A DNA stretch of 64,000 nucleotides from an uncultured Chthonomonadaceae bacterium (GTDB lineage: Bacteria; Armatimonadota; Chthonomonadetes; Chthonomonadales; Chthonomonadaceae): positions 1 to 64,000 of the forward strand of contig CAWIEK010000039.1 in NCBI GenBank assembly GCA_963835065.1, in the 5' to 3' direction. Every line of letters starts with the position of its first letter. The stretch's first letter is position 1. Below, one piece after another: positions 39,235 to 63,832 of this stretch. A program made the position numbers and the translations under genes. The notes beneath the pieces were generated by a model. The model searched no databases and was not told where the DNA came from. It was given only the letters and a program-made list of their open reading frames with translations.

Positions 39235-40080
39235 ATGAACCGTAAAGGTTTCACCCTGATCGAATTGCTCGTCGTGATCGCCATAATCGCCATCCTCGCC
39301 GCCATTCTGTTCCCCGTGTTCGGGCAGGTGCGCAAGAATGTGCGGCAGGGGCAGTGCATTGAACAAATGCACACGATTTATACCGCACTCAAGCTGTACA
39401 AGGAAGACAACAACCGGTATCCCGCCGCCTTGTTCGGGTTTGCCGAAGATGGCACGGACTTCTACACCGGCGGAACTGTCGGAAATCTCAGCCTGCTGCA
39501 CTACAAGCCGTTGTTCACCAAACAAAATTATCTCAAAGACAACGCGCTGTACCAGTGCCCGGTCACAAAAGACAAAAACCAGACGGATGTGACGAAAGCG
39601 TACTATCCGAACGTGATTGCGTACCCGACCAATACGGCGCTTGCCACTACAAACGTGATTTTCGATACCAATGTCCAGCACAGCATCGGGCGTGACGCGG
39701 ACGCGACATTCAGCAAATTTATCGGCCAGAGCATCTACTATTACAAGTACGACAACTACGACATTCAGCCGATGCCCAATTCGACTCTTGATGGCCCCGA
39801 TCCGAGCGGCAAGTACGAGGTTCACTACGCGCTGAACTGGTCTATCAAGCCTGCCAATCCGCTGCAGCCCGTCACCAGCGCCAACGATTTTCGCGTGTAC
39901 CCCAACCAGATGAAGTACGGCAACAAAGCCGACGAAAGCCATACCGTCGTAACCTGGTGCAACGAACACGCCCTGAATGCCTACAGCGACAAAGTCCTGG
40001 TGCTGTCCCTGAGCGGGCAAACCAAAGTCGTTGACAAGAAAACCTTCTACCAAAAAGGTCCTTTGACAATTTTGAAATGA
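39235..40080 (+). CDS. prepilin-type N-terminal cleavage/methylation protein
   Basis: MNRKG-FTLIELLVVIAIIAILAAILFPVF. Confidence 0.92.
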   Translation: MNRKGFTLIELLVVIAIIAILAAILFPVFGQVRKNVRQGQCIEQMHTIYTALKLYKEDNNRYPAALFGFAEDGTDFYTGGTVGNLSLLHYKPLFTKQNYLKDNALYQCPVTKDKNQTDVTKAYYPNVIAYPTNTALATTNVIFDTNVQHSIGRDADATFSKFIGQSIYYYKYDNYDIQPMPNSTLDGPDPSGKYEVHYALNWSIKPANPLQPVTSANDFRVYPNQMKYGNKADESHTVVTWCNEHALNAYSDKVLVLSLSGQTKVVDKKTFYQKGPLTILK

Positions 40081-40109
40081 GTGATACGACGCGGAAAGAA
40101 CACGGAACC

Positions 40110-41177
40110 ATGAAAACGCGCAACGCTTGCCGCCCAACACCCAACACCCAACACCCAACACCCAACACCGCTTTCACCCTGATCGAATTGCTCGTCGTGA
40201 TCGCCATTATCTCGATTCTCGCCGCTATTCTCTTCCCGGTCTTCGCGAAGGTGCGCGAATCAACGCGGCAGGGCAGCGCCATGAGCAACATGCATGCCGT
40301 CTATCTGGGCGCGAGGCTGTTTTACGAGGATGAAGGCCGCTATCCCACGTCGCTGTTTGGTTACGCGGAAGTGCCTGTTGTCAACGCGACCTACGACCCC
40401 AACAAGCCTACTGCCGCGCCCGCCCGACCCGGCGATACTAACATCACGCCCATGAGTCAGGCTACGGGCAATTATTACACCGACGCGCTCAGTACGGGAC
40501 GCGGCCTCAATCACGGCTATCTGTACGGCGAGCAGGTGAAAGACTTCGAGACGTTTCTTGACTCAGATAACCTTGTCGGCAAGCAGCAGAACGGGCAGAC
40601 GCAGGTAACAGCTGTTGTCTATCCCAAGACACTGCCGACGCTGAAAGATGGCACGTCGCTGGCAGGCCTGAACGTCGTGTGGACGCAGCGCAGTACGGGC
40701 GGAACCGGCTGCCCGGTATCCGGCGACACTGATTATCCGACCAACCCGAACGATAACACCGACTTGTCCTACTACAACAACCAGTCAAAACTGTTCTACA
40801 AGATGGACAGCATGGACATCGGCCCGGCTATAGACTTCGACGCGAGCGGCAATGCGATTGTCCGCAAAGACGGCAGTGGCAACACGGTGTATGAACTGCA
40901 CTACTCGCCCGACTGGACCAAAGAGCGCTACGATGGCAAGGGCTGTGACGCAGTAGCGGACGGCACTCCAAACGGCAAGCCGATTGTGTCACAGTTGAAG
41001 TACAAAAGCCCGCCCACCGAGCGCACGATTCTTACGTACAACACCGACCACGTCGCCACCGCCGGAAGTTCAAACGTGCTGATCCTGCTGATGTCAGGCA
41101 CAGCCCGCACCATGGACGTCAAGCAAGCCCTGAAACCGGCTGCCAATGCCATCACGCTGCCGCTGAATTATAAATAG
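40110..41177 (+). CDS. prepilin-type protein, paralogue of the preceding gene (alternative start 40077)
   Basis: A-FTLIELLVVIAIISILAAILFPVF; shares RYP..LFG.AE and YE.HY..W with its neighbour. Confidence 0.92.
   Translation: MKTRNACRPTPNTQHPTPNTAFTLIELLVVIAIISILAAILFPVFAKVRESTRQGSAMSNMHAVYLGARLFYEDEGRYPTSLFGYAEVPVVNATYDPNKPTAAPARPGDTNITPMSQATGNYYTDALSTGRGLNHGYLYGEQVKDFETFLDSDNLVGKQQNGQTQVTAVVYPKTLPTLKDGTSLAGLNVVWTQRSTGGTGCPVSGDTDYPTNPNDNTDLSYYNNQSKLFYKMDSMDIGPAIDFDASGNAIVRKDGSGNTVYELHYSPDWTKERYDGKGCDAVADGTPNGKPIVSQLKYKSPPTERTILTYNTDHVATAGSSNVLILLMSGTARTMDVKQALKPAANAITLPLNYK
40133..40169 (+). repeat. (CCCAACA)5 inside a prepilin leader peptide
   Basis: Encodes PTPNTQHPTPNT immediately before A-FTLIE. 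Confidence 0.95.
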
Positions 41178-41302
41178 GGTATTCAGGTATTCAGGTGTTC
41201 GGGTGTTCAGGAAATGCAAAAGCAAAGATGTTGTTTTCGCGCAACAAGTTCGCAGCCTAACACCTGAATACTTGAATACCCGAACACCTGAACACCTGAA
41301 TA
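41177..41302. repeat. octamer-arm palindrome (RGGTRTTC)4 ... (GAAYACYY)4-5
   Basis: Begins in the TAG of the prepilin gene; arms 41177-41211 and 41256-41302. Confidence 0.9.
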
Positions 41303-41311
41303 TGTAACCGG

Positions 41312-41352
41312 GCGGGGAAGTCACGCGAACAGGCAATACTTCCCCGCTTCTT
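41312..41352 (+). terminator. possible intrinsic terminator
   Basis: gcggggaagt ... acttccccgc followed by ttctt. Confidence 0.5.
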
Positions 41353-41404
41353 ATCTGTGTTCCCATCAGGTATTGGGGATTAGACACTGCATACACGAGT
41401 TAAG

Positions 41405-41437
41405 CCGAACACCTGAATACCTGAACACCTGAACACC
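41405..41437. repeat. octamer arm (GAAYACCT)4 with decayed left partner
   Basis: ccgaacacctgaatacctgaacacctgaacacc. Confidence 0.8.
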
Positions 41438-41455
41438 GCATTTGGATTGTCCGTC

Positions 41456-41481
41456 GGAACAAGCGTCACCGGGAAGTCGTC
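41456..41481 (+). promoter_or_regulatory. putative ECF-sigma promoter GGAAC-N17-CGTC
   Basis: GGAACAAGCG.....GTCGTC, matching 39095-39120. Confidence 0.55.
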
Positions 41482-41545
41482 GTAAGTAGGGTAACGCGCT
41501 CTTGCATTGCTGCCATCGTCGGCAGTCTCCACGCTTAGGGAAACC

Positions 41546-43690
41546 ATGAACTCAGGAACATATCATAATCGTCGTCCCGTGATTTCGATGCGCAGGCTTC
41601 GCGCTTTTTCACTGCTCGAAATTCTGGTCGTGATGGTCGTTTTGCTGATCGGCATCCTTGCCGTCGTGCGCCTGTTTCCCGGCGGCTTTCTGGCGATTCA
41701 GCGCACAGGAGAACAAACGACGGGAACGCAGCTCGCCGAGCAGCAGTTGGATTTACTGCGCAGCCTGCCCGTTCTGCCGGACTACATCGTGCCCGGCCTC
41801 CCCGACAGCAATGGCGGAATTCATGAGATTTCCAACATTCGCCCGGACGATTTGACGGAAGCGACGGATCAGGACGTGTCGCAACTGGCGACTGCGAACG
41901 GGTTCACCATCTTTCCCAACTATCCCGGCTACTACTTCTCCAATATAAATCGCTTCGGCTACATCAAAGGCGAAACTTTTTATATTCCCGTGTCCAATCC
42001 CAACATTGTGGATGGCAGCAACAAGCCCTATGGCTCTATTGCTCTGCTTCAACTCGGCCCCGTGTTCAACTACTTTAATACGAGCGGCGGTCAGACGACG
42101 GACAGCCTTCACGTGTATGGCGCGGCATTGACGCGGACGCTGCAAAGCGCGGTCGCCAGCACGGATCGCCCCGATGCCCGCGCCCTGCTGCGCAACGAGG
42201 CCGAGTACGCGATTGATTATGACAATCACATCATCGCCTTCTTCCCCCGCGTTGCCCAACCCGGCATGATAAAGTCGCGCGAGTTCCAGATTACCTTTGA
42301 TTACTACGACACGAGCGCCAACCCGCCCACGCTGAAAACGCAAACGGGTAAAATCGTCGTGCAGGACATAGACCCCACAACCGTTGTTGCGGGCGTGTTG
42401 CCCCAACCCGTGTGGCAGGACATTTTCAGCGCCACGAACCCGGCTCCCACCAACGCCAAAGACGAGTTCAACATCCGCCACGAAAGCGACGATGTGAGCC
42501 GCGCCTTCAAGTTGATTACGACGGACTACAACGGCGGAACGAAGCAGACGTTTGAGGACGCAACTGCCGGACCGGGCTGGTCGGACGATGCGTATGAATA
42601 TGCCTGGTTCTCCGGGCAGCAAACAGGGGATTCCAATGATGGCGTACTCGTGTTCAACCCGAAAGCGCATGTCTCCATTCTTGCGGACGACAGTTCCGAT
42701 CCGCTGACGCAGGCGCAGGGCCAATCGTTTACCAACAATCTCGGACTGGTGGCGCGGGTGGATTACCTGACCTACGACAACCATATTCTGCGCGACCAGC
42801 GTACGGTTCCCTCAAGCGCGCCGTATACCATTAAATTGTCCGTGCCCAACCTGCTGACGTACAATGACATTCTGGACGATGGCTCCACGTATACCGGCCT
42901 GTTCAATGTCGCGGCGGGAACCGTGCAGCCCGACATTATTGTTGTCAACGCCAACGACGGAACGGAAGTGGCCGAGTACACCAACAACCCCTCCGCAGGC
43001 AGCAATCCTACGGTTGTGCGCGGCAATTATGATGAAGCCAACCATGTCCGCATCAGCGTTGACACCGTAGCGGGAACCATCACGCTTGCGGCGACGGCGC
43101 AGCCGGGGGATACCAACTTGAAGGGCGTGGAAGACCTGAACCTGCAGGGCAAATCCCTGCGCGTCTACTACCGAACGCAGAAAAACTGGGGTATGCAGCT
43201 GCAAAAGGCCAGCAGCGTGTACACGGCCACCACAAACCCCGACACGCTGGACTACAAAACGTTCTTCATCGGCCAGGGCGGCACGAACGGCTTTGCCACG
43301 CGCCTGTATTTCGCGCCCTCGGAAGCCGGCAAGACCGTCAGCCTGAGCGAGTTCTATCTGAAAACAGCGAGCGGCACTATTTACAGCCCGTTCAAGAACG
43401 CGACGTTCAAAATTCAGGACGCCCCCTTACAATTCGAATCGTTGGGCACGAAAGGCATCCTGTATCCCTGGATTGACGTGAGGGACAGTTTTCCGAACGC
43501 GGACGCAGAACACGTTCCGCAGGGTGGCGCAAGCGGCGATGCGATTACCGGGTTTACCGCCGCCCCAACTGGACGCGCCGTAAGCCAGGTGCGCGGCCTG
43601 TCCGTGAAATCCCGCGTGATCTGGAAAGACCGCAACAATTTCCGCCGCATAGACCAGGACAGCGTTCTGACTACCGACCGTTTACAATAA
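41546..43690 (+). CDS. giant PilV-like minor prepilin (~715 aa)
   Basis: RRLRA-FSLLEILVVMVVLLIGILAVVRLFP. Confidence 0.85.
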   Translation: MNSGTYHNRRPVISMRRLRAFSLLEILVVMVVLLIGILAVVRLFPGGFLAIQRTGEQTTGTQLAEQQLDLLRSLPVLPDYIVPGLPDSNGGIHEISNIRPDDLTEATDQDVSQLATANGFTIFPNYPGYYFSNINRFGYIKGETFYIPVSNPNIVDGSNKPYGSIALLQLGPVFNYFNTSGGQTTDSLHVYGAALTRTLQSAVASTDRPDARALLRNEAEYAIDYDNHIIAFFPRVAQPGMIKSREFQITFDYYDTSANPPTLKTQTGKIVVQDIDPTTVVAGVLPQPVWQDIFSATNPAPTNAKDEFNIRHESDDVSRAFKLITTDYNGGTKQTFEDATAGPGWSDDAYEYAWFSGQQTGDSNDGVLVFNPKAHVSILADDSSDPLTQAQGQSFTNNLGLVARVDYLTYDNHILRDQRTVPSSAPYTIKLSVPNLLTYNDILDDGSTYTGLFNVAAGTVQPDIIVVNANDGTEVAEYTNNPSAGSNPTVVRGNYDEANHVRISVDTVAGTITLAATAQPGDTNLKGVEDLNLQGKSLRVYYRTQKNWGMQLQKASSVYTATTNPDTLDYKTFFIGQGGTNGFATRLYFAPSEAGKTVSLSEFYLKTASGTIYSPFKNATFKIQDAPLQFESLGTKGILYPWIDVRDSFPNADAEHVPQGGASGDAITGFTAAPTGRAVSQVRGLSVKSRVIWKDRNNFRRIDQDSVLTTDRLQ

Positions 43691-43717
43691 CCTGCCTTTA
43701 CCGAGATATTCAACGCC

Positions 43718-46030
43718 ATGACAGCAACGAAGCCAACCATATATAGGGAACAGGGAACAGGGAACAGGGAACAGAAAATACCCAATACCCAACGCTCAAC
43801 ACCCAACACCCGACACCACGCCTTCACCTTGATCGAACTTCTCGTCGTGATCGCGCTGACGGCGATTCTGCTGACGCTGGTGTTCGCGCCGCTTGTCACC
43901 ACGCTGAACCTGACGAGCCGGGCGGGAACACAGATCGAGGCGCAGACAAACGCGCGCGACGTAATGCGCCAACTGGAAGCGGAATTGGGCGGCCCGGTCT
44001 TTGTGTACGACAACGTGCTGCAGGGGCCGGCCAGTCAGGGCGGCAAATTGGGCGACCCGGACGGGCGCGTCAACCTGTGGATGTACAAGCGCAATGGAAC
44101 CAATCCCATTGGCGGCGCTCCCGTTGTGATTCCCATTCGGTTCGGCATGATAGAATATGTCGCGCCGGCCAGCCAGTCGGAAAACAGCGCGAATACGACG
44201 CTTGATCCCACGACAGGCAGGCCGGATGTGGGAACCGGTTCACCGGGAAACGTTTCTTTGCCTCTGGTGCGCGGACGAGAAATAGTGCGCATATTTCAGG
44301 GACTGCAAAATAACACTTCCGGGACAACAGGCTTAACGCAGGACGGGGTTACGCTGTCCGGTATGCCTGTAGACGCGAAAGGCAATTTTCACGGCTACGC
44401 CAACCGCTTCGACGACGCGGCGGATGTGACCGCTTCCCAGGACAACCGCACCACGCTGTACCGGGCCGAAGTTCAGCCCTACATTCCCGACCCGACCGCG
44501 CCTGCGAACACAACGCGCTATGTCGCCAACATCGCCCTGTTCCATACCTTCAATGCGCAGGGAACGCGGGGAACCGACCCGACCGGAACCCTGATTATGG
44601 ACGAACCCAACTTCTTCTATGACACCACCCCGATTCCTGCCGCATACGTACGATTAGGCGCTCCGGGCGTGGATATTGCCGGACGCGCGACCGTTCCCAT
44701 GTGGGAGTGCTGGAAGGCCGTGTCGCAGCCCCTGCTGCCCCTAACCAAAGGCGATGTTGTGGAATTGCAGCGTGATAACCGCAACCAAATCGTATACGAT
44801 GCCAATGATGTGCCGATTGTGCGTCCGTTGATTACGTTCACGCCGCAGTACGTGGAAAACGATCCGGGCGTCCCGGCCAGCGTGGAAGCGTCCGCTTCGG
44901 AAACTCCTTTTACCGCCGCCACAACGTACCGTTCGCAGTATGGCGCGTGGGCGCGTCCGTTCCGCGTGATCGTGTACCGCTCGCCGGACGGAATTCAGGA
45001 CCCGCTTGGCTATCAGGACGCGGGCGGCAAACCGCTTTATTATGAAATGGATGACGTGAGTACGGGCATCGGCTTTCAGGGGCCGAGCGCGAATCTGGCG
45101 TCCAGCGTCGGGCCGCAGCTCAACCCGGATGGCTCGTGGAAAACGAATACGACGCCGCAGTTCGCCTTTACGCCGGATTATGACAAGGGCACGATTAATT
45201 TCGCGTTCCCGCACACCGTCTATGATCGCCTGAGCGACGGTTCGCCCGTGCCGATGTACTACAATCCGAATACCATCAACAGCCAGATAGACATTCTGGC
45301 GAACGGCGAACCCCTTACCGGACGTCGTTACCTGTGGCTGCGCTACTTCGACCCAACGGCGCAAATCGGCGGCACGGCAGCCAACCCGACAACGGCCATA
45401 TCGCCGCTCGACAAATTCTATGTGGCGCTGGATGATCCGCCGCAAACACCGGCCAAAAATCAGCCCAAAGTACGCATCGTGCCGGGCAGTGAGCGCGTGT
45501 TCGGGCCGGATCAGCTTCCGGGAGCGCACTACGGCTACCGAACGCAGTACACCCGCGTGTCGGCCAATGCCGGTCAGATCGGGCAAAACCAGTACAAAAT
45601 CCTGTACGAGAACGCCGCCAACTCGAACTATGTCAACGACATCAACGACCCGCGCGTACAAACCGGCTATATCGAATTCGACAGCCTGCCCGACAAAGAC
45701 CCCGGCGCATTGCCCAACATCGGTTCCGTAAACCTGGATGCAACGGTGGAAAACCCGTCGCAGGCGGCAGGCAGTCTGCCCGTATATCGCCCGCACAGCC
45801 TGCCCCTGCTGAAGTACGTTGCGGCAACCGGCCAGACCGTGCCCGCCGACCCGATTGAAGTGTCGTACAGCTTCCAGATGAACCGTCCAAGCGACGTGGT
45901 GAAAATAGACTACCTGACGCGCAGCATCATGAACGTCAACATGGAAATGCGCCTGTACGATCCGCGCTCCGCCCGCCCGCAAACCACGCAATTGACCAGC
46001 AAGGTTTCGGTACGGAACCTTCAGCGCTGA
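43718..46030 (+). CDS. giant PilW-like minor prepilin (770 aa)
   Basis: HA-FTLIELLVVIALTAILL..Q.NAR..M..L..EL; C-terminus LTSKVSVRN. Confidence 0.85.
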   Translation: MTATKPTIYREQGTGNREQKIPNTQRSTPNTRHHAFTLIELLVVIALTAILLTLVFAPLVTTLNLTSRAGTQIEAQTNARDVMRQLEAELGGPVFVYDNVLQGPASQGGKLGDPDGRVNLWMYKRNGTNPIGGAPVVIPIRFGMIEYVAPASQSENSANTTLDPTTGRPDVGTGSPGNVSLPLVRGREIVRIFQGLQNNTSGTTGLTQDGVTLSGMPVDAKGNFHGYANRFDDAADVTASQDNRTTLYRAEVQPYIPDPTAPANTTRYVANIALFHTFNAQGTRGTDPTGTLIMDEPNFFYDTTPIPAAYVRLGAPGVDIAGRATVPMWECWKAVSQPLLPLTKGDVVELQRDNRNQIVYDANDVPIVRPLITFTPQYVENDPGVPASVEASASETPFTAATTYRSQYGAWARPFRVIVYRSPDGIQDPLGYQDAGGKPLYYEMDDVSTGIGFQGPSANLASSVGPQLNPDGSWKTNTTPQFAFTPDYDKGTINFAFPHTVYDRLSDGSPVPMYYNPNTINSQIDILANGEPLTGRRYLWLRYFDPTAQIGGTAANPTTAISPLDKFYVALDDPPQTPAKNQPKVRIVPGSERVFGPDQLPGAHYGYRTQYTRVSANAGQIGQNQYKILYENAANSNYVNDINDPRVQTGYIEFDSLPDKDPGALPNIGSVNLDATVENPSQAAGSLPVYRPHSLPLLKYVAATGQTVPADPIEVSYSFQMNRPSDVVKIDYLTRSIMNVNMEMRLYDPRSARPQTTQLTSKVSVRNLQR
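43745..43817 (+). repeat. chimeric heptamer cassette (AGGGAAC)4 + (CCCAACA-like)5 in a prepilin leader
   Basis: Encodes REQGTGNREQKIPNTQRSTPNTRH before A-FTLIE. Confidence 0.9.
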
Positions 46031-46047
46031 AATAGCATCTAAGTAAG

Positions 46048-46174
46048 AAGGCATTAGGCATTAGATATTAGGCATTAGGGACTAGGAACACTCCTCAAAT
46101 CCTGCTTCCCACAGTCAATGCAAACATCAACGAGCGCATTTCCCTAATGCCTAATGCCTAATATCTAATGCCTT
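46048..46174. repeat. heptamer-arm palindrome (GGCATTA)4 ... (TAATGCC)4
   Basis: Arms 46048-46081 and 46141-46174, each with one GATATTA/TAATATC variant. Confidence 0.95.
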
Positions 46175-46192
46175 TCCTGGAGCATCGTTCCT

Positions 46193-49100
46193 ATGTCCGA
46201 GCAAACCCGGCAGGTCTGCGCGTCGCGCAAATCCCGTATTCGCCGTGCATCGCGCCCAATCCGGCCAAACGCTGGTTGTGGCGCTGGCCGTGCTGTTTAT
46301 TCTGCTGTTCCTCGGCGGCACGTTTGTCGCGCGCGTGGCCCGCAACCTGACCAACTCGCGGCGGGCGGGGGATACGTCCGACGCGCTTGCGCTGGCGCAG
46401 GCCGGACTGAAATACTGCGACTCCGAATTGACCGGCAGCGCGGACGGCGCGGACTGGCGGCCTGTTCCGAGCGCCCCCATCGGCCCCAATAACGGCGTCA
46501 ACGATCCCGATTACTTCTGGCTGGAAAAAGGCTTTACGCGCCTGAACCTCAAGGGCGGACGCGCGCTCGTGCGCGTTTCCTACGATCCCGATCCCTTCAA
46601 CCCAGTCGGGCAGGCCATTAAAATCGAAAGCATCGGGCGTACGGGCGAACTCGATCCCAATGACCCGACCGTGTTTGTGCAAAATCAAGTCTCGCCGCGC
46701 CTGCGCCGCGAACTGATCGCTTACAAGCGGCTGGGCATCACGGACTACCTGCGCTTCATTACCGATAAAGACAAGAACAACCATAACAACTATCTGGGCG
46801 TTCCGGCTATCGGCCACTATTTCCCGATGGTGTTCGGCAACCCGATGCTGGCGATGGCTTCCTATTATAATGGCGTGAGCGGCAACGAAACTCTGTACGG
46901 CGGGCCGGTTTACTGCAACTCCAACCTGACCATCATGGGCGACACGCTGTTTTATGAGGGGTCGCGGGGCGTGTACGATCCGTATACTGCTGGTTCCGGC
47001 GACGCGGCGCGCGTTCAGGAAGGCATTTTCGCGGCAGGCGTGATTACGGCCAACCAATCATCAACGGCTTCGCCCACCGCCACGCGCTTCGATAACGCGG
47101 GACTTCCCATCAATCAGGCGTTTATCAACGTAGACCCGACTGACCTTGACCGCGCCTGCCACTGTGAACAACATGCCCTACGGCGGTCCGATTACCCCGA
47201 CCCTGACGGCAGCGGGCGCTCCGAACGCGAATTATGAAACCTATATTCAGCGGGTGCGCGACAACAGCCCCGATCCCGACCGCTCCGGCAATCCCCGCGG
47301 CGTGTCCCGCCTGACGCCGCCCTCCATTGACACCAATCTCAACGGCACGGGCAGCCTGCGCGTCCGCCGCATTGCGCAGGAGTCGGGCATCTGGATCAGT
47401 CCAGAACTTCAACACGGGTATGCACGGGTGGGGAACCAGCATCTACGTGGACAACAACGCCGACTTGCAGCAGGAAACCCAACTGCCGGGCGTCAATGGC
47501 GGCTTTTCCCTGCCCGCCGACTGGACCAATCCCAACGCCGGATTTGCGCAAAGTTCGTGGCAAGGCCCGTACTATCGCCCGCCCGGAGTCCTCGTGGAAC
47601 TGCTCGGCGACCGGATGCGGATTACCCGCACGGACGGCAAATCGTTTTATGGCTCGGATGGGACGCCCAACGCGCAAAACGGCGGCTCCACAATCGAAAT
47701 TCCGTTTTCGGATGTTGATCGCGATAATCTGCCGACGATGGCCGGACAACCACCGTTGCAGCACTTCCCGCGCGATGGCGACGAGCCGTACACGGGAACC
47801 GACCCGCGCAACAGCAGCAAGTTCAGCATTGATCCGGGTTCCTACGGCGTCAACATCCTGCTGTTTGCCGAAGGCAACATCCGCGTCAAGGGCGTGTACG
47901 GAACCCTGACCGATACCACCAAGCCTTCGCCCAAACTGAGCCGCGTTCACCTGACACTGGTTACGGGCGGCAGCGCGTATATCGAAGGCAACCTGGTCAA
48001 GGGCGATGGAACCGTGAGCGGAGCGGGCGGAGCCGTGCAGCTTCAGCGCAACTCGACGTGCCAGATAATCGCCAAAGATTATGTGTGCGTGAACACGTCT
48101 ATGTTTATGCAGCCGCAAAACCAGACAAACGTGTGGAACCGCCTGACGCCGGACGTGGACGCTTTCGCAACCGAAATCGGCCTGCCCCGCGTGTCCTACG
48201 ACACGGCTTTTAACAATGGCGTGTTCCCGAACAGCTACACCAGCGCCAGCGCGGGGAGCGCGGTTCCGCAGATGCTGATGATGCGACAGGCCGCGCTTGC
48301 GCCCGGACCCACAGCCGTAAACCTGTTCGTCAACCCGGCTGCCGACAATGGCGCGGGCAATACCCTGTTCAACTGGCCGCAGTACGGCATCAGTTACCCG
48401 CTCGGCACGCGGCCCGACCCGAACACCAACCTGATCATACCGGACCCGTCTTCCGTGACGCCGTACTTTGAGCAGAAAACGTTCGTGTTCGATCCTAACA
48501 CGACTGCGCCGACGTACAATGTGTATCCCGGCTACGACAACCTGCTGCGCTTGCAGGTGGATCAAACGGCGGCGGCATCGCAGGTCAACATCGCGCAGGG
48601 GCCGCTGCAAAGTTATCTGCTCGGCGGTATCATGGTATCGCCCTTAGACATTCGCATCGAAGCGGCCTTGTACGCGCAGGACAAATCGTTCTTCATCATT
48701 CCGGGTTACTCGTTCAACCCGGACCCGAACGATACCCGCGCCCATTTCCTTGCGACTAGCAGCGCGCCCGCCGCCGGGGATGGCAACCGCGTATCGTTCA
48801 GCCCGCTGGATGTTCAGGCGGATCGGGACGCCAAAAACAGGTTCCCGTACCACAATGAGCCGCTGGATGTGCGGATTACGTTTCAGGGCGCGATTGCCGA
48901 AAGTTATACGGCAAGTCTGGGCGCGCAGGCCGCGTGGCTGAAGCAATGGGGTTATACGCCCGCCAAATACGGCTCGTTTAACGCGGCCAATGCCATGAAT
49001 ACTGAGATCCCGGACGATCACCTGATGGCGCGCGACCCGGCCCCCAATGGAACCCTGCCGGTCGGGTATGTGGCGGGCGATCCGGGCAATCTGGATTTCC

Positions 49101-49436
49101 GCACAATGGTTGAAAAGCAAACCGATACGCCGCCGCGCCAACGACTTTCTGCTCACGCGCGCTCTGCGCTTCGAGTACGATCCCGCGCTGGCAATGCCGT
49201 ACTTCCACAGCACCGACAAAACGCTGACGGGACAGCAAAACCGCAATCTTCGGCTTGGCCGCGCCCTGCGCTTCACCAAGCGCACGGTAACAGGCTTCGG
49301 CAGCAACACGCTGGTTTTCCGCCAACTGCTGCCGCCCATGCCGCGCCTGCCGCTCGGCCCCGACCTGATCTTCTCCGGCCAGAGCGACCAACTGCTGGGT
49401 GAAAACCCGTATGACACGGATTTGTATACGCCATAG
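46193..49436 (+). CDS. giant PilX-like minor prepilin (~1080 aa; frameshifts near 46245, 47145, 47400, 49135)
   Basis: QSG-QTLVVALAVLFILLFLG (no Glu5), A..LAQAGL, IESIG; consecutive ORFs overlap with 1-nt shifts. Confidence 0.75.
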
Positions 49437-49438
49437 GA

Positions 49439-54766: not shown

Positions 54767-54773
54767 AAAAGAA

Positions 54774-54919
54774 AGGCATTAGGCATTAGGCATTAGGCAT
54801 TAGGAGGAGAGCAAAGCGCAGCTTGATTGGGTCGGCTGCACTGTGAAAACAGGGTTGACACGCGCAAGACGCGCTTCATTGCTTCCCTCCTAATGCCTAA
54901 TGCCTAATGCCTAATGCCT
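54774..54919. repeat. heptamer-arm palindrome (AGGCATT)4 ... (AATGCCT)4
   Basis: Perfect 34-bp arms 54774-54807 and 54886-54919. Confidence 0.95.
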
Positions 54920-54941
54920 CTACGCAAAGAGGATACACCCC

Positions 54942-57900
54942 ATGAGGCACCACAGTGCGCTCGTCAAACAGTTTGTGATGGGAGCGGCGGCGACGCTGCT
55001 GCTGGCATTGGGCGCAGGTTCGGCCCGCGCGCAGGTTCCCATAACCTTCGATGACCTCGACTGGACGACAGATCGGGGTAACATCATCTTTTCCACAACG
55101 GGAAATCTGAACGCTTATCCGCTGCGTCCGGGACGCAACGGCGCGAACGGCAACCCTGCCGATCCCCGCTTCAATCCCCTGGACAGCAAGCGCGCGGTTC
55201 GGCGCTGGGTCTGGCCGACAACATCGGACCTTTCCGGCATTACGGGCGGGATTCTGCCGCCCACGACGAGCCTCAGCGTGACGGTGGACAACCCCTACTT
55301 TGACGGCGCGAACGGCTACCTGAATAAAGCCAATAGCAACATCTTTTTAGACAGTACGCAGTCGCCCGACTCGCTGAACCCGTGGACGCCCATAAATGGC
55401 TTCACCGTGCCCGCGCCTGTGGATCGCGCAGACCTGAACGGGTTCTATTTTACGTTTAACCCGCGCGAAACCACCGGAGTTCCCACGGATCCGCCACAGG
55501 CCGCCGCAGGCGATTACGGCTACACCTACGCGCACCACAACGATTTTGTCGTCATACGCGGCAACAATAATGACGGGCCGGCGACGGACTCGGAACTGGC
55601 CGCGCTGCCCAATGCCGCGCCGAACGTGTACTCCGCCGTCCATAAGGTGCTTATCAACACGGCCCAGAGCCAGCCCCTGGCGCAGTGGACACTGGGTTCC
55701 ACGCTCAACGCCAATTTGGGCGGAAACCCGGTTCCTGCCGGCACGTACAACATCAATCTGTACTCGCCGGGCGGCGGCACTTTCATCACCCATCCCGGCA
55801 ATGTCCGCCTGCAGCACCCGAATGTGCTGCGCGCGTTCGCGCGCGTTTCGTGGGGCAAAAACACGGTTACCGGCGGCGCGATCAATTTCGGGACCGGCGT
55901 GGCGGGAGCGGGCGGCGTCAATGATCCCACGACCAGCCGCATTTTTCTGATAGACCTGTCCGCGCCCGGCTATATTCCCATCGGGGCGGCAGGGCAGGCG
56001 GCTGCCGTGTTCCCTTACGACGGCAACGCCAACGATCAAATCGTGGTCACGCTGTACAGCGTCACGCCCGACGATCCCAACGACCCGACCAAATACGGCC
56101 CGCCCGACCCGGTCAGCGGCATTCAGCGCACCGCGCTTGTCACCGCCGACGCCTGCCAGTTCACGCAGGAAAACCTGGACGCGGAGTGGCGGGCCGGGAC
56201 TTGGTCCGCTTCCCGATGCCAACGCCAGTTTTATCGGCTCGTCGGGCGTGATTTCCAGCCCGGTTGTCGGCTCTAATAAGTTCGCGCCCAGGGGCGTGGC
56301 GGGCGCGACGCAATGGTATGTGGCGCGTCAGGAACTGACGCGCGATGTGACGCCGCGCACTTATGTAGACCCGACCAACGGCAACAGCCTGCCGATTCCT
56401 GATCCCACGCTTGTGGCGAACGTGCCTGTCTTCTACTGCCTGAGCAACGAAGACCAATTGGGCATTTTGGGCAACCAGAGTTCGGCGCAGCCCTCCAAAG
56501 CGCGCGTGTTGTGGCGTTTTGTCGGCTATCCCGACGCGGGCAGTGAAACCGTGTTCGCTTCCCCGGTTCTCGCCAATGTGCGCGGACGCGACGGCAAGTA
56601 CCATACCATCGTGTACTTCTGCGGAACCAACGACGGGGGCCAGGCGGGAATCACGGGACGCATTTACGCGCTGGACGCCAAAGGCGACCCCACAACCGCG
56701 ACCACGATTCCCTATTGGACCTATCCTTCCGTGCGCCCGCTGTCGGCAGGGGAAGTCGCTGCCGGCCTGTACCCCGCGCAGTACGAAGACCCCAACTACA
56801 ACGGCTCGCCCGTCCTCACTTCGACGGTGTACCCGACCAACACCATGCCCTATGGCGGAGCGGGCCACTGGTGGGAGAAAGACCAGCCTCTGTTCGCGTC
56901 CGGGGCGCAGGAGTATTACGACGGCGACATTCGCCCGGACACCACCAACGCCGGCCATTTGATTGTGCGTACCGATACGCTTATCGGCAACACCGGAGCG
57001 GGCATGGGCGGCATTCAGGGCGCTCCCATCGTCATAGATGACCCGGTAAATCCGGGTGGCCCGATGCTCCTTGTCGTGCCGAGCGTGGATGGCCGTTTGT
57101 ATACCTTCGATGCGGGCGGAAGGGGAGACTACACGCTGGCCGATGGAACAACCATCGTGCCGGGAACCACGCAGCGAATCTGGACATGGCCCCACTTCAG
57201 CGCGGACGCTTATCACCATTTCTTTGCCGGAACCCTTACCGGCAATCCCGAAAACCAGTTCAAAAGCGAGTCCGGCAAGGGCAACATGCCGTACTCGCCG
57301 GCATACGATCCCACGTTCCCGGTCGCTTCGGGACCCGGCGTTGTGAACGACCCGATTATCGTCACGGCGGGGGATGGGCACGTTTACGGCATCAAGCCGC
57401 TGCACGACGCGCTGACCACCGTTGCCAGCAACGGCATCCCATTGTGGAACGAGCGGCGCTTCTGGGTGTATCCGCACCAGGGCACGGGCCTGAATGATCC
57501 GTCCGCGGACGCCCTGTTCGACACGCCCGGCGTGCCGACCATCTATCGAACCGGACCAACCTCGGCAACCGCGTCCATCAACTTTACCAGCAGCGGGCGC
57601 ATTTACAGCCTGAACTTCCCGCAGACGCAACCGGCCTCCGGCTACAGTACGCCCAGTTTGCGTTGGGTATTCCCCAACACGCCCAATCCGCCCAACCAGG
57701 ACCCCACCGATCCGTCCACGTTTGAATACCCGCAGGGTTTCAGCGCGCACGGCCTGATCGTCGTGCCGCAAAGCATTACGAACGGAAGCGGCCAATCCTT
57801 GCCGAACGACATGGTGTATGCGCTGCTGAACGATGGCAACGTGGTGGGCGTGAATTACCCTAATGGCACGTTTTATGCGGCGGGAACGTCGCTGCTGAAC

Positions 57901-60900
57901 GCGGATTCCATCGACAGCGCGCCGATTGTCGCGGAAATAGCCCCGGACCCGGCCTTTTACTCGCCGGTGCGCAATCTGACGTCTGTGGCGCAGTCCGTGC
58001 CCGCCCTTGTTTTCGGCGACAGCGCGGGAGGACTGTACGGCTTCAAACTGGTTTCCGAATCCAACCAGGATTCGACCAATCCTGTCAATATCCTGCCGAT
58101 CATTTATGCCCGCCTGGATACAAGCGGGCAACTGGCCGCGCCGCCCGCCCTTGCGGCCTCGAACTTTACCAGCAAAATCGGCGGCTATTATGTGGTGGGC
58201 GACACCAACGGGCAATTGCGCGCGTACAGCTTCGGCTTCGGGCAGTACGGCGACATTGAAACCGTGCCCAATACGGAAGGAACCGGCAACAGCTTTATAG
58301 CAGGAGACGTGTCCATTGACGTGCGTATCATAGACGCCTATGCGAAGGCCGATTACGACCAGATGGCCCAGGCCGGAACTGCTTACGGCACGGGCAAAAC
58401 ATCGGCGCGTATGCAAACAGGCGGCGTGTATAGCCGGTCGAACGGCCACGCCCCTGCCCAACAACCTCAACGCGAACGGCACATCCTACTTCGCGCAGGA
58501 TCAGGGCAACGTACTCTACCTGGTCGCGTCGGGCGTCTATCACGCGCAGCCGGTTGTGGACAGCGTTCCCAATGGCGCCGCGAAAATCGCCACCGCGCCG
58601 CCCACAATCAAGGTCACGTTTACCCTTCCGCAGGAAGGTGGCCCGTCCGTAACGAAAGTGGTTACGATACAGCCCACTTCCGATACGGACACCAAGAGTG
58701 GCGCTCCGTGGCCGCATAAATTCGCGTGGCCGGATGACCGCGCCATTTCCCCCGGCGAACACGATCAGTTGAGCATCTACGGCAACGATTACAGCGACCC
58801 GATGAATCCACCCGACCCGGCTGCCAATCCGCCGACGGGCGCGAAAAAATTGACCGGGCGCGCGCAGAATGTCTTTCCCTGGATCGCCACAACGTCCATT
58901 TCCCTGACGCCCTCCATCGTCAACGGCATGGCTACGTTCACGCCCAACACCGTCGGCTCCCAGGTGTCTGTCAGCGCGATGATTATGCAGACACTGTCCG
59001 GGCAACAAGCCCCGGCGCAGGAAACCGCATATCTGAACATGGGCCAGCGCTCGGATCAGGGCAGTTCCAACAGCGCGTATCCGCCCGACCGCAACAACCT
59101 GAGCAATGGCAACTACCAGAGCAAAGAGCGCGCGCTGTACATCACCAACCCGCTGTCAGTCACGGTGCGCGGCTACAATACCAGCGGCAACAACATCACC
59201 GACCAGACGGGCACAAACTCGTACAACATCATCGGCTGGTTCCCCGGCGTGGATAATCCGAACTTCAATGGCGCGCTCAGCGGGCTGGAACTGACCGGCA
59301 ATGGGGCGTATGTCGGCATCGGCGGCGCCACGCCGGGGTCGCCGGGAACGGGCGTTATCAAGTCCATTTATGCGCCGTTCGATATGGCGCAGGACAACAG
59401 TTCGACGACCTATCGGGGCATTGACAACACGGGAACGCGCCGGGATGCCTTCTTCATCATGGATCGCAGCAGCCTGGGATACAAAGGCAAACTGGTCCAA
59501 ATCCGGGCGCATGTGTCAACTCTGAGCTGGACGGGAACGAACACGTCCATGATGAACCCCCTGCCGTTCGACATATTCCCGATCAATCAGTACGGTGTGC
59601 AAAGTTTGGACTATCCGAACCTGGACGCGCGCTACGCCACAATGACCGTCAACAACTCGGACGCGCTTCACGGCACGGCCACGCTGCTGCCGGCTACCGA
59701 CGACCCGGCGCATCCGGGCGATGAAAGGTATCGCATCCCGCATCCGACGCCCGTTAGCATGTCGCTGCAAATCCCGAAATACTTTCCGGCGAACGTGAAC
59801 CGGGGCGTGGTTCGCAGCAATTTCCGGGGCCAGAATCTTGATACGGGCGGCACGTTTACCGATCAAGCCGGGTACATACGCGGCGCGCGGCAAGGCTCGT
59901 CCGGGCCTGCGTACCAGGATACAAGGCAGATCGTCGGCCCGCTGAACAACGTTACCGGCCAGGCGGACGCTTATACCAACGCCAACGGGTTGGTAGGCAG
60001 TTCTCCCGCCGCCGGCTATACCGGCTCCATCGAAGTGGAAATGGTTCCGCCGGGAAGCACGAGTCAGCCGCTCTCAGCCGGCCAGCGCCGCCTGACCTTC
60101 AACCAGGGGGCAGGACTGACAAACAGGCGCACGGGCGCTGCGAACGGGCAGACGTACCGCAAGTTCGAGGCCGGCATCGCCGTTGCCCCGACGTTCCGCA
60201 TGAAGGTGCTGGAAAACGTGGTGGACCTGGGCAACCAGCCGCATGGCACGGGCTACAGCGATCTGATCGCGAATAACGCCGGGTATCCGGGAGCCGCGCA
60301 GTACCGCTATCCGTTTGCCCCGTCCGCGACAGGTTCTTATGCCACGTCGCTGTCGCCCTGGGACATCAATGAAGCGTTGACGGGATTGGCGCTTGGCGCG
60401 GGCATACCCGCCGAGGGGCAGTTCTTCCATCCGATCACGCTTGTCAGTGACAGCAACATCAACCTGATCAACCTGCGCGTCGCCAAACTGCTGGGTATTC
60501 CCAGCACGGACAGCAACGCGGTTCCGAACCTGGGCGGCATTATCAACAACGCTTCGCTGTCGCAAAATCCGCCGTTCGGCGTTGCCCGCGCCGCGCGCCT
60601 GTTCAGCGACCAGGTCAACAGCCTGCTGTCGCCGCCCATGATCGCCGCTCCCTTCGGCATGATCGTGGGAGGTGGAACCGCCCCGAACTACCTGGGCAAT
60701 ATCGGCATCGTGTCGTCCTTCGACCACGACAGCTACGCGCAGAGCATTTTGGGCGAAAACAACCTGTATCCCATCGCCAATCCCGCTGTGGACGCGCAGA
60801 CCGCGGCGCAGTCGCAGGACTTGTTCACGCTGTACGGTCCCGCGCTGTTCGGGCCGGCGTGGGCGCAGAACACGCAGTCGCGTCCCACGCTGCACAAGCC

Positions 60901-63832
60901 GCGCCCCAACGACAGCACGGGAACCATCGCCAGCATCCCGGATAAGCCGTATGACTTCGACTACCAGGCGAACACGCTGAATCAGCCTGCAAATCCAAAC
61001 GGCCCGTCGTACATTCAGCAGCAGCAGCTAATCGGGTTGTTTGGCCGTCCGTCTGTGGGAATGGCAATACCCATCGGTACGCCGGTGGGAACCTACAGCG
61101 CGCCCATCTTCCCGTATGAGGATGGCCTGCCGATACAATGGGTGGAATGGCTGAACAGTTCCACGTTAAGCTCGGTCGCCAAACCCGCCAACATCCTGGG
61201 CAACAACGACGACATTCTGAACACCACGCAGGCCGGCGCGCTGGCGGAACCCTACGCCAATCCCTCGCCAATCGTGAAAGTGTCGGTTCGGGAGTCCCGC
61301 CTGACCGAAGGCGCGACAAACGGCTCCATGCCGCAGATTGACGTGCGCAATAACAACGGCGGCTACGATCCCATCGGCTTCAACATGCAGCCCTCCGCGA
61401 TCATGGTTCCGCAGGCCGGAACCGCCACGAATGTCTATAACAAGATATTCCTGTACTGGGCGACCAACCGGCAATTCAACCCGGCGGGCAACAACGGCAA
61501 GTACAACGTGTCCGGGCTGCCCACGCCGTTCGCGCCGTACAATCTCGCGTACTCCTCGCTCATCACGCCGTATGCCTACCTGAACGGCTACTATCGGGGC
61601 GACGCGGACTTCGGCTACTACAAGGGCAACAACGCGCTGTTCCCGGACAACGTGCGAATGCCGCAATGGTGGAGCGCGGGCTATCCCAAGAACTCGCCGT
61701 TCGCGCTGTTGCCGGGCTTCGATATGAACGGCGACCCGCTGGATTACACCAAGCTGTTTCCGCAGCAGACGGGTTCCAGCAATGTCGTCAGCCCGCCGTC
61801 TGTCCGGTACGGCAGCCCCGCCACCACGCTGGCTACGCTGTACAACGAGGCCACCGGCAACTTCGAGATTGACCCGGAAGCCTACCTGACCGCGCAGGGC
61901 ATTGCGGACAAGACTTCGGGCACGGATGCGTCGGGCCGCGCGCTTCCGCAGCAGACGGAAACCCGCACGTTTGTCGCGTCGCTGGCGAATCGCTCGGGCA
62001 ATTCGGAACCGGGAGCGCCGGACTATACCAATAGCACAACCGATACGTGGTTCAAATCGTTTATCAACGATCCCACGCTGCCCAAACTCAGCCCGCGCCC
62101 GCTGCTGGTCAAACTGCGCAGCGCGCCTGTCAACGGCAGTACGCAGGACCTCAAGTTCCTGTACGTGTTCTGGTTTACCGGCGCGCAGAACCGCACAAGC
62201 CTGTACTACAACGTGAACGTGCAGGCGGGTGGCCTGAATCAGAAGTTCGATGACAAGGGCTTCCAGGTTCTGGGCGACCAGAAACTGTCCACGCCCGGCG
62301 CGCTGACATGGCAGAGTGATCCGTACCCGGTCTTCCGCCGCGCTTACGACCCGACATTAGGCCAGGTTGTGGATGCGGTAGACGTGATGTTTACGGGACA
62401 ATTGAAGAACCGGCAAGTGTCGGAAGTGATGCTGGCCCGCTACCGCATCGTGGAGCAGGCGGTTCCGGCTGGCACGAGTACGCCCGCGCTTGCGGTCGGC
62501 CAACTGGTTGCGATGCCGTTCCCGACGGTGCATCAGGAAACCCTGACGCCCGTGCCCGGAACCAACACGTATGCGGCGCGGGACGCGGCCTGGTTCCTGC
62601 CCAACGATCAGCAGACGGCGGATACGGCAGCTAACCGCTACATGCGTATCTACCTTTCGCAGAAGGGAACCAGCCAACTCTACCTGATTAACAGCCAGGC
62701 GTATATCAACGGCGGAACCAATGTCGCCAATGGAACGCAGCGCGGGCGCATTGACCCGGCTTCCGGCCTGGTCTACTTCAACGCGGTCGCTGTGGATACG
62801 GGCACAAACAAAATCGCCATGAACGGCACTCGCCCGGTCTATGGCGGCGGGCAGATCGTGGTGGATGCGCGGTCTGGTACGGTTTCGTTCCCGAACATCC
62901 CGCCCGGCAAAACGGATCGGCTGTATGCGTCTTACACGCCTTATCTGCTGCGGGTCAACACGTCCCGCGACGAAAGCAATGTGGAGCGCGACAGCACAGA
63001 TATTTCGGGCAATCCCAATCCGTATGGCGGTTTCAACCTGGCCGCCTTCCCGGCGCACCCGGCAGTGTCATCCAGCGGGCAGAACTACTCGCCGACGTTC
63101 ATCATGGATCGCGCCGCCAACTTCCGGGGTACGCTCCAGTCGCCGCAGGTGCTGTTCGGCGTCAACAATCAGCCCGCGACCTCGTTCAACAACCAGGGCG
63201 CGCTTGTTGGAGGCTCACTGCCGCCCGTAGCTCGCATGTGGGCGTTCTACCGCAAGACCGACGCGGCGGGAAGCATCAAGGGAACCGTGTTCTTGAAATC
63301 GCTGCGGCTGACGGCGCGTTTGCCCCTGCCCGTCGCAACGATTGCCACTGTAGGTACGGCAACTGCGCCGATTGCCTCGCAACGCATCCAGTCCATAACC
63401 GTTACCGGCGTAGATAGGCCATTGACGCGGGGGTATGAGGTGGATTGGGTACGCGGGCGCGTGTACTTCCAGGAGGAGGATGAGGGCAATCTCGTCAAGA
63501 TCAACTATCAGTACTACAATCCGAGAAATGGGCAGTCCGCCAATTCCGGCGACCTGTACTACCGGGTAGCGTGGAGCGACGAGATCAGCGCGGCGGGCGT
63601 CACCAATGGCGATCAAACAACGCCGGAAGTGGCAATGCCGACCTCCTCGGTTGTCAACGAAGGCCAGATTGCCGCGTTCAAAGACCCGTACATTGACAAA
63701 GTGTGGCTGTTCTGGAGCAGCACCCGCGCGGGAACCACCATCGGCGCCAACAACAATCCGCTCGGCGAAACCGACCTGTACTACGAAACGCTCGCGCCGC
63801 AGTTCTACCCGTCGGCGAGTAATCAGTATTAG
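54942..63832 (+). CDS. giant secreted protein (~2960 aa) with carbohydrate-binding-like domain and PQQ-like propeller (frameshifts near 56183, 58445)
   Basis: Signal peptide ..SARA-Q; FASPV, GRIYALDA, DGRLYTFDA, GDGHVYG, GDTNGQLRAY; three ORFs overlap with 1-nt shifts and show no obvious internal RBS or signal peptide. Confidence 0.7.

What the first reader, a model, noticed from the sequence alone, without database searches (positions are those of the whole stretch)
39235..63832. Type IV pilus locus with giant minor pilins and two giant propeller proteins
Seen: after pilB/T/C/D come two ~280-355-aa prepilins, then prepilins of ~715, 770 and ~1080 aa in PilV-PilW-PilX-like order (the last lacks Glu5), then secreted proteins of ~1740 and ~2960 aa where pilY1 normally lies. 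Known: canonical PilV/W/X are only about 150-400 aa and form a tip complex with one PilY1. Inference: an unusually massive, lineage-specific tip or surface apparatus for adhesion, polysaccharide binding or cell contact. No secretin, PilMNOP or short major pilin is in this window.
Basis: partly seen in the sequence, partly recalled or inferred. Interest (0 to 1): 0.72.

Follow-up and report, generated by a model that had tools for sequence, protein, structure and literature searches.

The report
Giant pilus-tip module of Armatimonadota
This is a real operon, shared by almost the whole bacterial phylum Armatimonadota, in which the proteins that likely start and cap a retractable type IV pilus are several times the usual size and are followed by two huge exported propeller proteins that would act as optional tip adhesins; it is an undescribed, oversized variant of a known machine.

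Summary
Observation confirmed. After pilB/pilT/pilC/pilD come prepilins of 281, 355, 714, 770 and ~1,060 aa (the last without Glu5), then exported proteins of ~1,740 and ~2,960 aa. The frame breaks are probably assembly errors: relatives are intact. The organism is an Armatimonadota (Chthonomonadaceae-like). The K-type pilin X was found in 388 of 401 phylum genomes, the first giant protein (Y1) in 128 of 171. In many relatives pilMNO and the secretin follow directly; this genome has them on other contigs. X is predicted to be ComZ-like (pilin plus beta-solenoid plus a CBM35-like insert) and to close its own pilin sheet, supported by fold alignment and a covariation ladder. It would therefore not need PilY1. 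Y1 and Y2 match no PilY1 profile, and several families keep the big pilins without them, so they look accessory. No paper on the locus was found. The scan has reported this operon before in other genomes. Verdict: new variant of a known kind.

The parts
26703..30635 (+). Upstream context: ruvX, mltG (YceG), a HAD hydrolase, aroE; aroE precedes pilB in most relatives examined
   Evidence: Pfam; synteny
30836..32647 (+). pilB extension ATPase with MshEN domain (603 aa)
   Evidence: PF00437, PF05157; TIGR02538 643.6 bits, just under its 675.65 cut-off
32739..34100 (+). Second, degenerate pilB-like gene (453 aa): no MshEN, altered Walker A, Walker B glutamate and His box missing; likely inactive
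   Evidence: also in G001 and G013
34386..35794 (+). pilT retraction ATPase, one frame break near 34,710
   Evidence: TIGR01420 497.9 bits over its 319.1 cut-off; 95% identical to the intact G001 gene
36477..37733 (+). pilC platform protein (418 aa)
   Evidence: PF00482
37785..39083 (+). pilD prepilin peptidase
   Evidence: PF06750, PF01478
39235..40080 (+). pre1: prepilin, 276 aa mature, Glu5 present; locus-bound subfamily (H/FimU-like or major pilin, undecided)
40110..41177 (+). pre2: paralogue of pre1, 334 aa mature, Glu5 present
41546..43690 (+). V: enlarged PilV/GspI-position pilin, 694 aa mature; inserted part has no known family
   Evidence: weak TIGR02523 PilV hit on the N-terminal helix only; alignment A4; Pfam N_methyl only
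43718..46030 (+). W: enlarged PilW/GspJ-position pilin, 735 aa mature
   Evidence: some homologues are labelled PilW or PulJ/GspJ family by NCBI
46245..49436 (+). X: K-type pilin without Glu5, ~1,060 aa, three frame breaks; homologue predicted as pilin + beta-solenoid + CBM35-like sandwich, with a C-terminal strand returning to the pilin sheet
   Evidence: model of the G233 homologue, pLDDT 77.8, pTM 0.83; ComZ 6QVI Z 12.2, rmsd 4.5, 294 aligned; covariation
49548..54766 (+). Y1: ~1,740 aa exported protein (signal peptide read by eye): DUF4159/GATase-like domain, PQQ-type propeller with a DxDxDG loop, NHL propeller; two frame breaks near 52,930-53,050
   Evidence: Pfam on 26 members: DUF4159 20, NHL 8, PQQ_2 3
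54942..63832 (+). Y2: ~2,960 aa exported protein (signal peptide read by eye): PQQ-type propeller with Golvesin_C-type module(s), predicted beta-sandwich stalk, C-terminal sialidase/BNR-like propeller without sialidase motifs; two frame breaks
   Evidence: Pfam on 19 members: Golvesin_C 11, PQQ_2 7; model of the G233 C-terminal half, pLDDT 74.7; Z 23-25.5 to sialidase-fold propellers

Best explanation
The window holds the main type IV pilus operon of an Armatimonadota bacterium, whose three enlarged minor pilins V, W and X likely form the priming and tip trimer of a retractile pilus; X is predicted to close its own pilin sheet like Thermus ComZ, and the two giant exported propeller proteins Y1 and Y2 would dock on this tip as accessory adhesins. 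Shown: gene content, order, sizes, loss of Glu5 in X, a PilT motor, phylum-wide conservation, linkage to pilMNO and a secretin in relatives, and whole families with no Y1 match. Predicted: the ComZ-like fold and cis strand of X, its CBM35-like insert, and the stalk-plus-propeller build of Y2. Inferred: PilD processes the five prepilins; X goes in first, then V and W; pre1/pre2 act as adaptor or shaft subunits; Y1 and Y2 cross the inner membrane by Sec, are loaded on the tip and are displayed beyond the secretin; PilT retraction pulls the cell onto a bound, probably glycan-coated, surface.
For: Complete motor set with PilT; operon runs on into pilM-N-O and a secretin in many relatives. I-J-K gene order and Glu5 pattern. 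X model: best PDB match is ComZ by two programs; the alignment spans model 120-887 to ComZ 30-517 and 49-886 to GspK 29-311, so the last strand aligns with theirs. Sequence covariation gives an antiparallel ladder 165-887, 167-884, 170-883, 172-879: 4 of the top 45 pairs from a block of 81 in 9,488, against 0-1 in 8 shuffles. X profile in 388 of 401 phylum genomes, mostly one locus. Y1 profile in 128 of 171, with none in families f6 (0/16), f10 (0/4) and f26 (0/6); four f26 loci run V-W-X-pilM with nothing between. Where Y1 is present it directly follows X, and family f33 fills the slot with two smaller propeller-type proteins. Glycan-type folds: CBM35-like insert in X (Z 7.6-8.1), Golvesin_C module and sialidase-like propeller in Y2. 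A cultured member has fimbriae and is non-motile (PMC4072686, passages).
Against: No direct evidence that Y1 or Y2 touch the pilins or leave the periplasm. V and W were not folded; their I/J assignment rests on gene order and N-terminal helices. The last residues of the X model have low confidence (mean pLDDT 54 for 881-889); the covariation shuffle ignores relatedness, and AlphaFold uses the same kind of signal. CBM-like Z scores near 8 are close to background for this search. About 7,100 residues (my sum) is far more than PilY1, which is already too wide to diffuse through the Pseudomonas alignment cage (PMC11525922, passages), so passage of a folded complex is a real problem. The shaft pilin is not identified.
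Confidence: 0.55

Rival explanations
1. V/W/X prime the pilus, but Y1 and Y2 are not tip subunits: they are cargo pushed out through the secretin to form a surface layer, or periplasmic/outer-membrane accessory parts of the machine.
For: They have signal peptides, are not needed to complete X, are not found in whole families, and their size is hard to fit through a secretin on a tip. BamB/TolB-like propellers and a GIFT/GATase-like domain are typical scaffolds. PMC13533445 notes that T2SS cargo with propeller folds binds the tip without strand addition.
Against: The genome has a separate T2SS-like cluster on C37. Y1 directly follows X in the loci read, and Y2 has a stalk-and-head build with glycan-type modules.
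Confidence: 0.22
2. The pilus is mainly a DNA-uptake (competence) pilus with X as a ComZ-like DNA receptor; Y1 and Y2 are secondary.
For: ComZ, the best structural match, binds DNA (PMC6561018, passages). comEC is in the genome. Near-universal, mostly single-locus retention would fit a housekeeping role.
Against: The same solenoid-PilX design also primes cyanobacterial motility/adhesion pili (PMC13759059, passages). Identity to ComZ is 16%. No competence gene was seen among the upstream window genes scanned. CBM-like and propeller modules point to glycans.
Confidence: 0.14
3. It is an ordinary PilVWX-PilY1 tip complex with long insertions, Y1 or Y2 being a diverged PilY1 that donates its last strand to X.
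For: Same gene position; signal peptides; C-terminal propellers; a DxDxDG loop in 15 of 26 Y1; PilY1 can reach about 3,500 aa (PMC13533445).
Against: No PilY1 Pfam match in 26 Y1 and 19 Y2 members. X's own C-terminus is predicted to occupy the strand position. Loci without Y1/Y2 exist. Y2's propeller matches sialidase-type folds best, whereas PilY1's is seven-bladed (PMC11525922).
Confidence: 0.06
4. The locus is decaying, or the large ORFs are fusions created by sequence error.
For: Eight frame breaks across pilT, X, Y1 and Y2 in the window.
Against: Single intact ORFs of the same sizes in the same-genus genome G001 and dozens of others; a transketolase in the window is broken in the same way.
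Confidence: 0.03

Closest known systems
Thermus thermophilus ComZ (PDB 6QVI) with PilA1-3 (PMC6561018, passages read)
   Same: K-type pilin with a triangular beta-solenoid inserted in the pilin sheet, GspK-like, argued to sit at the tip; best match to the X model (Z 12.2, rmsd 4.5, 294 aligned).
   Different: ComZ chain is ~520 aa; X is 741-1,138 aa in the loci counted and has a CBM35-like insert. No giant exported partners are described for ComZ. ComZ binds DNA; untested for X.
Cyanobacterial PilX/HpsA core priming complexes (PMC13759059, passages read)
   Same: [quoted passage not shown]
   Different: No sequence match of X to any Pfam family above chance or to NCBIfam. Here V and W carry hundreds of extra folded-looking residues and two propeller proteins follow.
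FimU-PilV-PilW-PilX-PilY1 / PilH-I-J-K-PilC tip complex of type IVa pili (PMC13533445, parts 1-3 of 8 read; PMC11525922, passages)
   Same: Gene order, Glu5-less K subunit, PilB/PilT/PilC/PilD/PilMNO/secretin machine, exported propeller proteins downstream.
   Different: Two non-PilY1 proteins instead of one PilY1; last strand predicted in cis, not donated; pilins of 500-1,100 aa.
T2SS GspI-J-K (PDB 3CI0)
   Same: K subunit closes its own sheet; X aligns to GspK over the pilin core and last strand (Z 6.5, rmsd 3.1, 94 aligned).
   Different: The locus has PilT and, in relatives, pilMNO; this genome has a separate T2SS-like cluster on C37.
Verru_Chthon cassette (TIGR02596, TIGR02599)
   Same: Lineage-restricted cassette of prepilin-like proteins, one of them very large (size recalled, not from a call).
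   Different: Only the N-terminal helix matches, far below cut-off.

Membership tests
Type IVa pilus machine | PilB, PilT, PilC and PilD | tested here: met
   PilT over cut-off; PilB 643.6 against 675.65 with MshEN; T2SSF; peptidase A24
Type IVa pilus machine | PilMNO(P) and a secretin | tested here: met
   On C32/C63 of this genome; directly after Y2 in many relatives; three downstream ORFs hit secretin models, best PilQ, all under the subfamily cut-off
Type IVa pilus machine | An identified major pilin | tested here: inconclusive
   pre1/pre2 hit GspG and PilA models on the N-terminal ~70 aa only; 63 other prepilins of similar N-terminus are scattered in the genome
I-J-K core minor pilins | Prepilin motif in I-J-K order, Glu5 in I and J, none in K | tested here: met
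I-J-K core minor pilins | Pilin globular fold in V and W, and trimer formation | not tested
ComZ / cyanobacterial PilX-type K pilin | Beta-solenoid inserted in the pilin sheet, last strand supplied in cis | tested here: met
   Prediction level, on the G233 homologue:
ComZ / cyanobacterial PilX-type K pilin | DNA binding (ComZ) | not testable with these tools
   needs a binding assay
PilY1/PilC adhesins | C-terminal T4P_PilY1 (PF05567) domain by sequence | tested here: not met
   0 of 26 Y1 and 0 of 19 Y2 members at E<=0.01; no PilY1 chain among PDB profile matches
PilY1/PilC adhesins | Seven-bladed PilY1-type propeller by fold | tested here: inconclusive
   Y2 C-terminal propeller matches sialidase/GH93/lectin folds best (Z 25.5, rmsd 3.5, 321 aligned); Y1 was not folded
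PilY1/PilC adhesins | Partner K pilin lacks its last strand and receives it from the adhesin | tested here: not met
   X is predicted to fill that position itself; a direct complex model was not run
PilY1/PilC adhesins | Sec signal peptide, gene directly after the K pilin | tested here: met
   Signal peptides read by eye, no predictor run; synteny
Type II secretion system | No retraction ATPase; GspL/M/C-type assembly genes and GspD in the cluster | tested here: not met
   pilT is in the operon; a distinct T2SS-like cluster lies on C37, read by eye
GH33 sialidases (Y2 propeller) | Asp-boxes and F/YRIP motif (motifs recalled) | tested here: not met
   Asp-box in 0 of 27, F/YRIP in 1 of 27 propeller sequences
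Class I glutamine amidotransferase (Y1 N-domain) | Catalytic Cys at the nucleophile elbow (position inferred from the motif, recalled) | tested here: not met
   Trp in 63 of 69 and Asp/Glu in 68 of 69 at the positions after GGxL; weak profile match to the IFT52 GIFT domain, E 0.06

The most novel reading that the evidence does not exclude
Armatimonadota build a phylum-defining capture-and-retract organelle: a ~0.8 MDa tip of three multi-domain pilins and two non-PilY1 propeller proteins, too large to pass a standard secretin gate pre-folded and so assembled in a new way at or beyond the gate, on a filament whose subunits are drawn from some 60 interchangeable prepilins, used to grip and reel in polysaccharide particles.
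Probability: 0.13. Interest if true: 0.85.

Novelty: new variant of a known kind. Interest (0 to 1): 0.52.

Why it matters
If right, it is a third way to cap a type IV pilus: a self-completing ComZ-type K pilin, plus I and J pilins carrying large domains, plus optional adhesins unrelated to PilY1. It tests how much mass a secretin can pass and how an adhesin can hold on to a tip without the strand-donation anchor. It also gives a near-universal surface machine of a widespread, poorly cultured phylum a concrete parts list, with natural loss variants (families without Y1/Y2) as built-in controls.

Tried and rejected
Inter-protein covariation on 78-80 paired loci (V-W, W-X, V-X, V-Y1, W-Y1, X-Y1; effective n about 55) gave only noise, including for the expected V-W pair; Y2 pairs were not computed. 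No RNA holder was listed for a relative's locus. The ESM Atlas gave only generic PQQ-propeller leads under 0.9 for Y1 and could not be run for Y2 or W. The idea that one V segment tracks Y1/Y2 presence failed: counter-examples G139, G089 and G105. PHROGs gave no family for V or W beyond weak N-terminal helix hits; the viral fold search gave generic propeller/Ig matches. The Hydin/CFAP (ASH-type Ig) reading of Y2's stalk rests on Foldseek ranks with very low TM-scores and a recalled motif; Pfam found nothing on 8 slices and the VIA runs covered only the propeller, so it stays a lead. PilY1 did not appear among the 50 listed fold matches for Y2. The genome-wide PF05567 search found nothing but its controls were also silent, so it is not counted. 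The Y2 profile found nothing in 5 Y1-negative genomes, with no positive control in that call. The f33 propeller proteins did not match Y1/Y2 profiles. Correction to my first notebook entry: pilM on C32 is one intact 540-aa ORF, not frameshifted. A planned larger set of loci could not be fetched, which limited the covariation test.
Full report
1. Observation. The window is the first 64 kb of contig C39 of an 8.0 Mb genome. On the + strand lie ruvX, mltG, a HAD gene and aroE, then pilB, a degenerate pilB copy, pilT, pilC and pilD, five prepilin-like genes and two very long genes. pre1, pre2, V and W have Glu5; X starts G|QTLVV. The window has eight frame breaks in this locus: one in pilT, three in X, two in Y1, two in Y2. 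The same-genus genome G001 has single ORFs of 1,124, 1,750 and 3,305 aa. In a comparison of 27 G001-derived ORFs with this genome, 6 showed a frame change (a few of the 27 are probably spurious opposite-strand ORFs), and a transketolase in the window is split. I read the breaks as assembly errors; reads were not examined.

2. Organism and spread. The two named records holding a V homologue are Chthonomonas/Chthonomonadaceae, and every organism name attached to W and Y1 homologues is an Armatimonadota taxon. W alone matched 121 of 301 phylum genomes at E<=1e-8. The X profile matched 388 of 401 at E<=1e-10; the weakest families (f6, f10, f33) score near 1e-20, and the loci I read from them were real pilin cassettes. 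The Y1 profile matched 128 of 171, with none in f6 (0/16), f10 (0/4) or f26 (0/6). Across 80 loci chosen for a clear X match and mostly carrying Y1, complete ORFs measured from the first possible start were V 504-876 aa (n=76), W 499-820 (80), X 741-1,138 (80), Y1 1,184-2,001 (77) and Y2 2,084-3,554 (51); 64 of 80 showed all five within the stretch fetched. The large ORFs therefore do not resolve into ordinary pilins. A search of 1.84 billion representatives found 510 X relatives at E<=1e-30, without names, so range outside the phylum is untested.

3. The machine. In G029, G040, G219, G298, G111, G233, G309, G107, G031, G039, G030, G181, G084 and G334, pilM-N-O follow Y2, and three downstream ORFs are secretins. 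In this genome's family, and in G132, G164, G201 and G068, they do not follow. This genome has pilM-N-O and a secretin on C32 and C63. It also has a T2SS-like cluster on C37 and a small-pilin cluster on C53, both read by eye. The window's operon has PilT, so it is the retractile system. Denise et al. mention T2SS in Armatimonadetes once (PMC6668835, passages), which fits the C37 type rather than this locus.

4. X. The G233 homologue folds as one unit (pLDDT 77.8, pTM 0.83). Foldseek's only matches at E<=0.001 are the three ComZ chains. VIA-align gives ComZ Z 12.2 (rmsd 4.5, 294 aligned, model 120-887), ice-binding solenoids Z about 11, CBM35-type sandwiches Z 7.6-8.1 for residues 537-719, tapirins Z about 7 and GspK Z 6.5 over model 49-886. 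Ellison et al. show that PilY1/PilC licenses assembly by donating its last ~10 residues to the K pilin, while GspK and some K pilins with large insertions supply the strand themselves (PMC13533445, parts 1-3 of 8). X ends in a conserved PxLPVxPxLxYxG. Mean-field covariation on 161 sequences put four pairs linking 164-172 to 879-887 in the top 45, all on one antiparallel ladder; 81 of 9,488 pairs lie in that block, and eight row shuffles gave 0-1. The shuffle does not keep relatedness and the model's last residues are of low confidence, so this is a supported prediction, not a fact. Cyanobacterial PilX proteins have the same design and are proposed to replace the PilY1 cap (PMC13759059, passages); ComZ is argued to fit only at the tip (PMC6561018, passages).

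5. V, W and pre1/pre2. V (27 members) and W (28 members) match only the N-methylation motif in Pfam beyond single chance-level hits. Both end in conserved strand-like segments, which suggests insertions inside a pilin fold; they were not folded. A ~70-residue segment of V recurs near the end of Y2 (E down to 1.8e-6). pre1 and pre2 belong to a locus-bound subfamily: a profile of their C-terminal parts from 23 other loci scores them 152 and 116 bits, against at most 19 for the other 63 prepilins of this genome. In many deep lineages the order is pre-V-pre-W-X. Whether they are H-type adaptors or the shaft is open.

6. Y1 and Y2. Both begin with a signal peptide by eye. Y1: DUF4159 in 20 of 26 members, NHL in 8, PQQ_2 in 3; the N-domain weakly resembles the IFT52 GIFT domain and shows no catalytic Cys. 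Y2: Golvesin_C in 11 of 19, PQQ_2 in 7. The C-terminal 1,188 aa of the G233 Y2 (pLDDT 74.7, pTM 0.68, first 150 residues poor) is all-beta; its last ~590 residues match sialidase, GH93 and fucose-lectin propellers (best Z 25.5) but lack sialidase motifs. The middle reads as beta-sandwich domains, with Hydin/CFAP Ig arrays at the top of Foldseek's list at very low TM-scores. No PilY1 match was found by profile. Four f26 loci run V-W-X-pilM, f6 and f10 loci show no Y genes after X, and f33 has two 440-540 aa propeller-type proteins there, one with a TolB hit. Y1 and Y2 are therefore accessory to the big-pilin cassette.

7. Mechanism. Most likely (0.55): V/W/X prime and cap a retractile pilus, X self-completes, and Y1/Y2 dock on the tip as adhesins for glycan-coated surfaces. 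The docking step is inferred from gene position, export signals and module types only; covariation was uninformative and no complex could be modelled. Against it, the module totals about 7,100 residues, while PilY1 at ~126 kDa is already too wide to diffuse through the Pseudomonas alignment cage (PMC11525922, passages). Rivals: Y1/Y2 as cargo or envelope scaffold (0.22), a competence pilus (0.14; comEC present), diverged PilY1 (0.06), artefact (0.03). The Fimbriimonas genome paper reports fimbriae, no motility and 79 PulG-like genes, and suggests attachment; the passages I saw do not describe this cassette (PMC4072686).

8. Literature and novelty. Searches: Armatimonad + type IV pil (23 of 24 listed), Chthonomonas + pili (7), prepilin/DUF1559/Armatimonad (7 of 8), Armatimonad + minor pilin (3), Armatimonad/PilY1/PilX/ComZ (12 of 169 listed, none with Armatimonad), plus for background. 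From titles and abstract starts none describes the locus; the library lacks most subscription papers and I opened no supplements, where gene tables may list it. PMC13190605 was seen as abstract only. The scan's index holds 11 findings on this operon in other genomes, 8 shown, all reaching a similar verdict; I had the ComZ match before that call and took from it the ComZ paper's id. New here, as far as those short notes show: the covariation support for cis completion and the families that keep the pilins without Y1/Y2. Class: new variant of a known kind. Interest 0.52.

Noticed in passing
window 32739-34100: Second pilB-like gene lacking MshEN, with altered Walker A and no Walker B glutamate or His box; also in G001 and G013 but not in most other loci read. 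Possibly a regulatory pseudo-ATPase.
   Followed up: partly
G000, many contigs: About 63 further 200-360 aa prepilins with a near-identical N-terminal helix are scattered through the genome; 31 of 65 have an H-x-N-x-DGH tail. They could be exchangeable subunits of this pilus.
   Followed up: partly
G000 C32 and C63: The pilM-N-O-secretin region occurs twice, 97.6-98.7% identical over about 27 kb; probably two strains or an assembly duplication.
   Followed up: partly
G000 C37:94052-111571 and C53:228362-241027: A T2SS-like cluster with a 1,164-aa secretin frame, and a second type IV cluster with two 117-aa pilins, normal-sized V/W, a 496-aa X-like gene and its own secretin; no pilT seen in either.
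   Followed up: partly
window 40134, 41285, 41426, 43746 and elsewhere: Short tandem 7-8-base repeats sit in intergenic gaps and inside prepilin leader sequences; three motifs occur 100, 402 and 178 times in the genome. They resemble cyanobacterial short tandem repeats (recalled).
   Followed up: partly
L082:93-2924, L110:3882-7021: Family f33 has two smaller exported propeller-type proteins (440-540 aa, DxDxDG loops, one TolB hit) after X in place of Y1/Y2; no profile match to Y1/Y2.
   Followed up: partly
L021-L024 (G023), L077 (G082): G023 carries two copies of the W-X-Y1-Y2 cassette; G082 has a second, orphan X-like gene of about 1,390 aa.
   Followed up: no
window 21192-23283: Transketolase split between two frames, used here as a sign of assembly errors.
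   Followed up: yes
window 17929-20254: NB-ARC and TPR pieces in three adjacent ORFs, probably one broken STAND-type regulator gene.
   Followed up: no
L011:5121-5726 and 8455-8937 (G001): The same-genus genome has an extra 201-aa prepilin before pilT and a partial pilC copy before pilC; neither was seen in the window.
   Followed up: no
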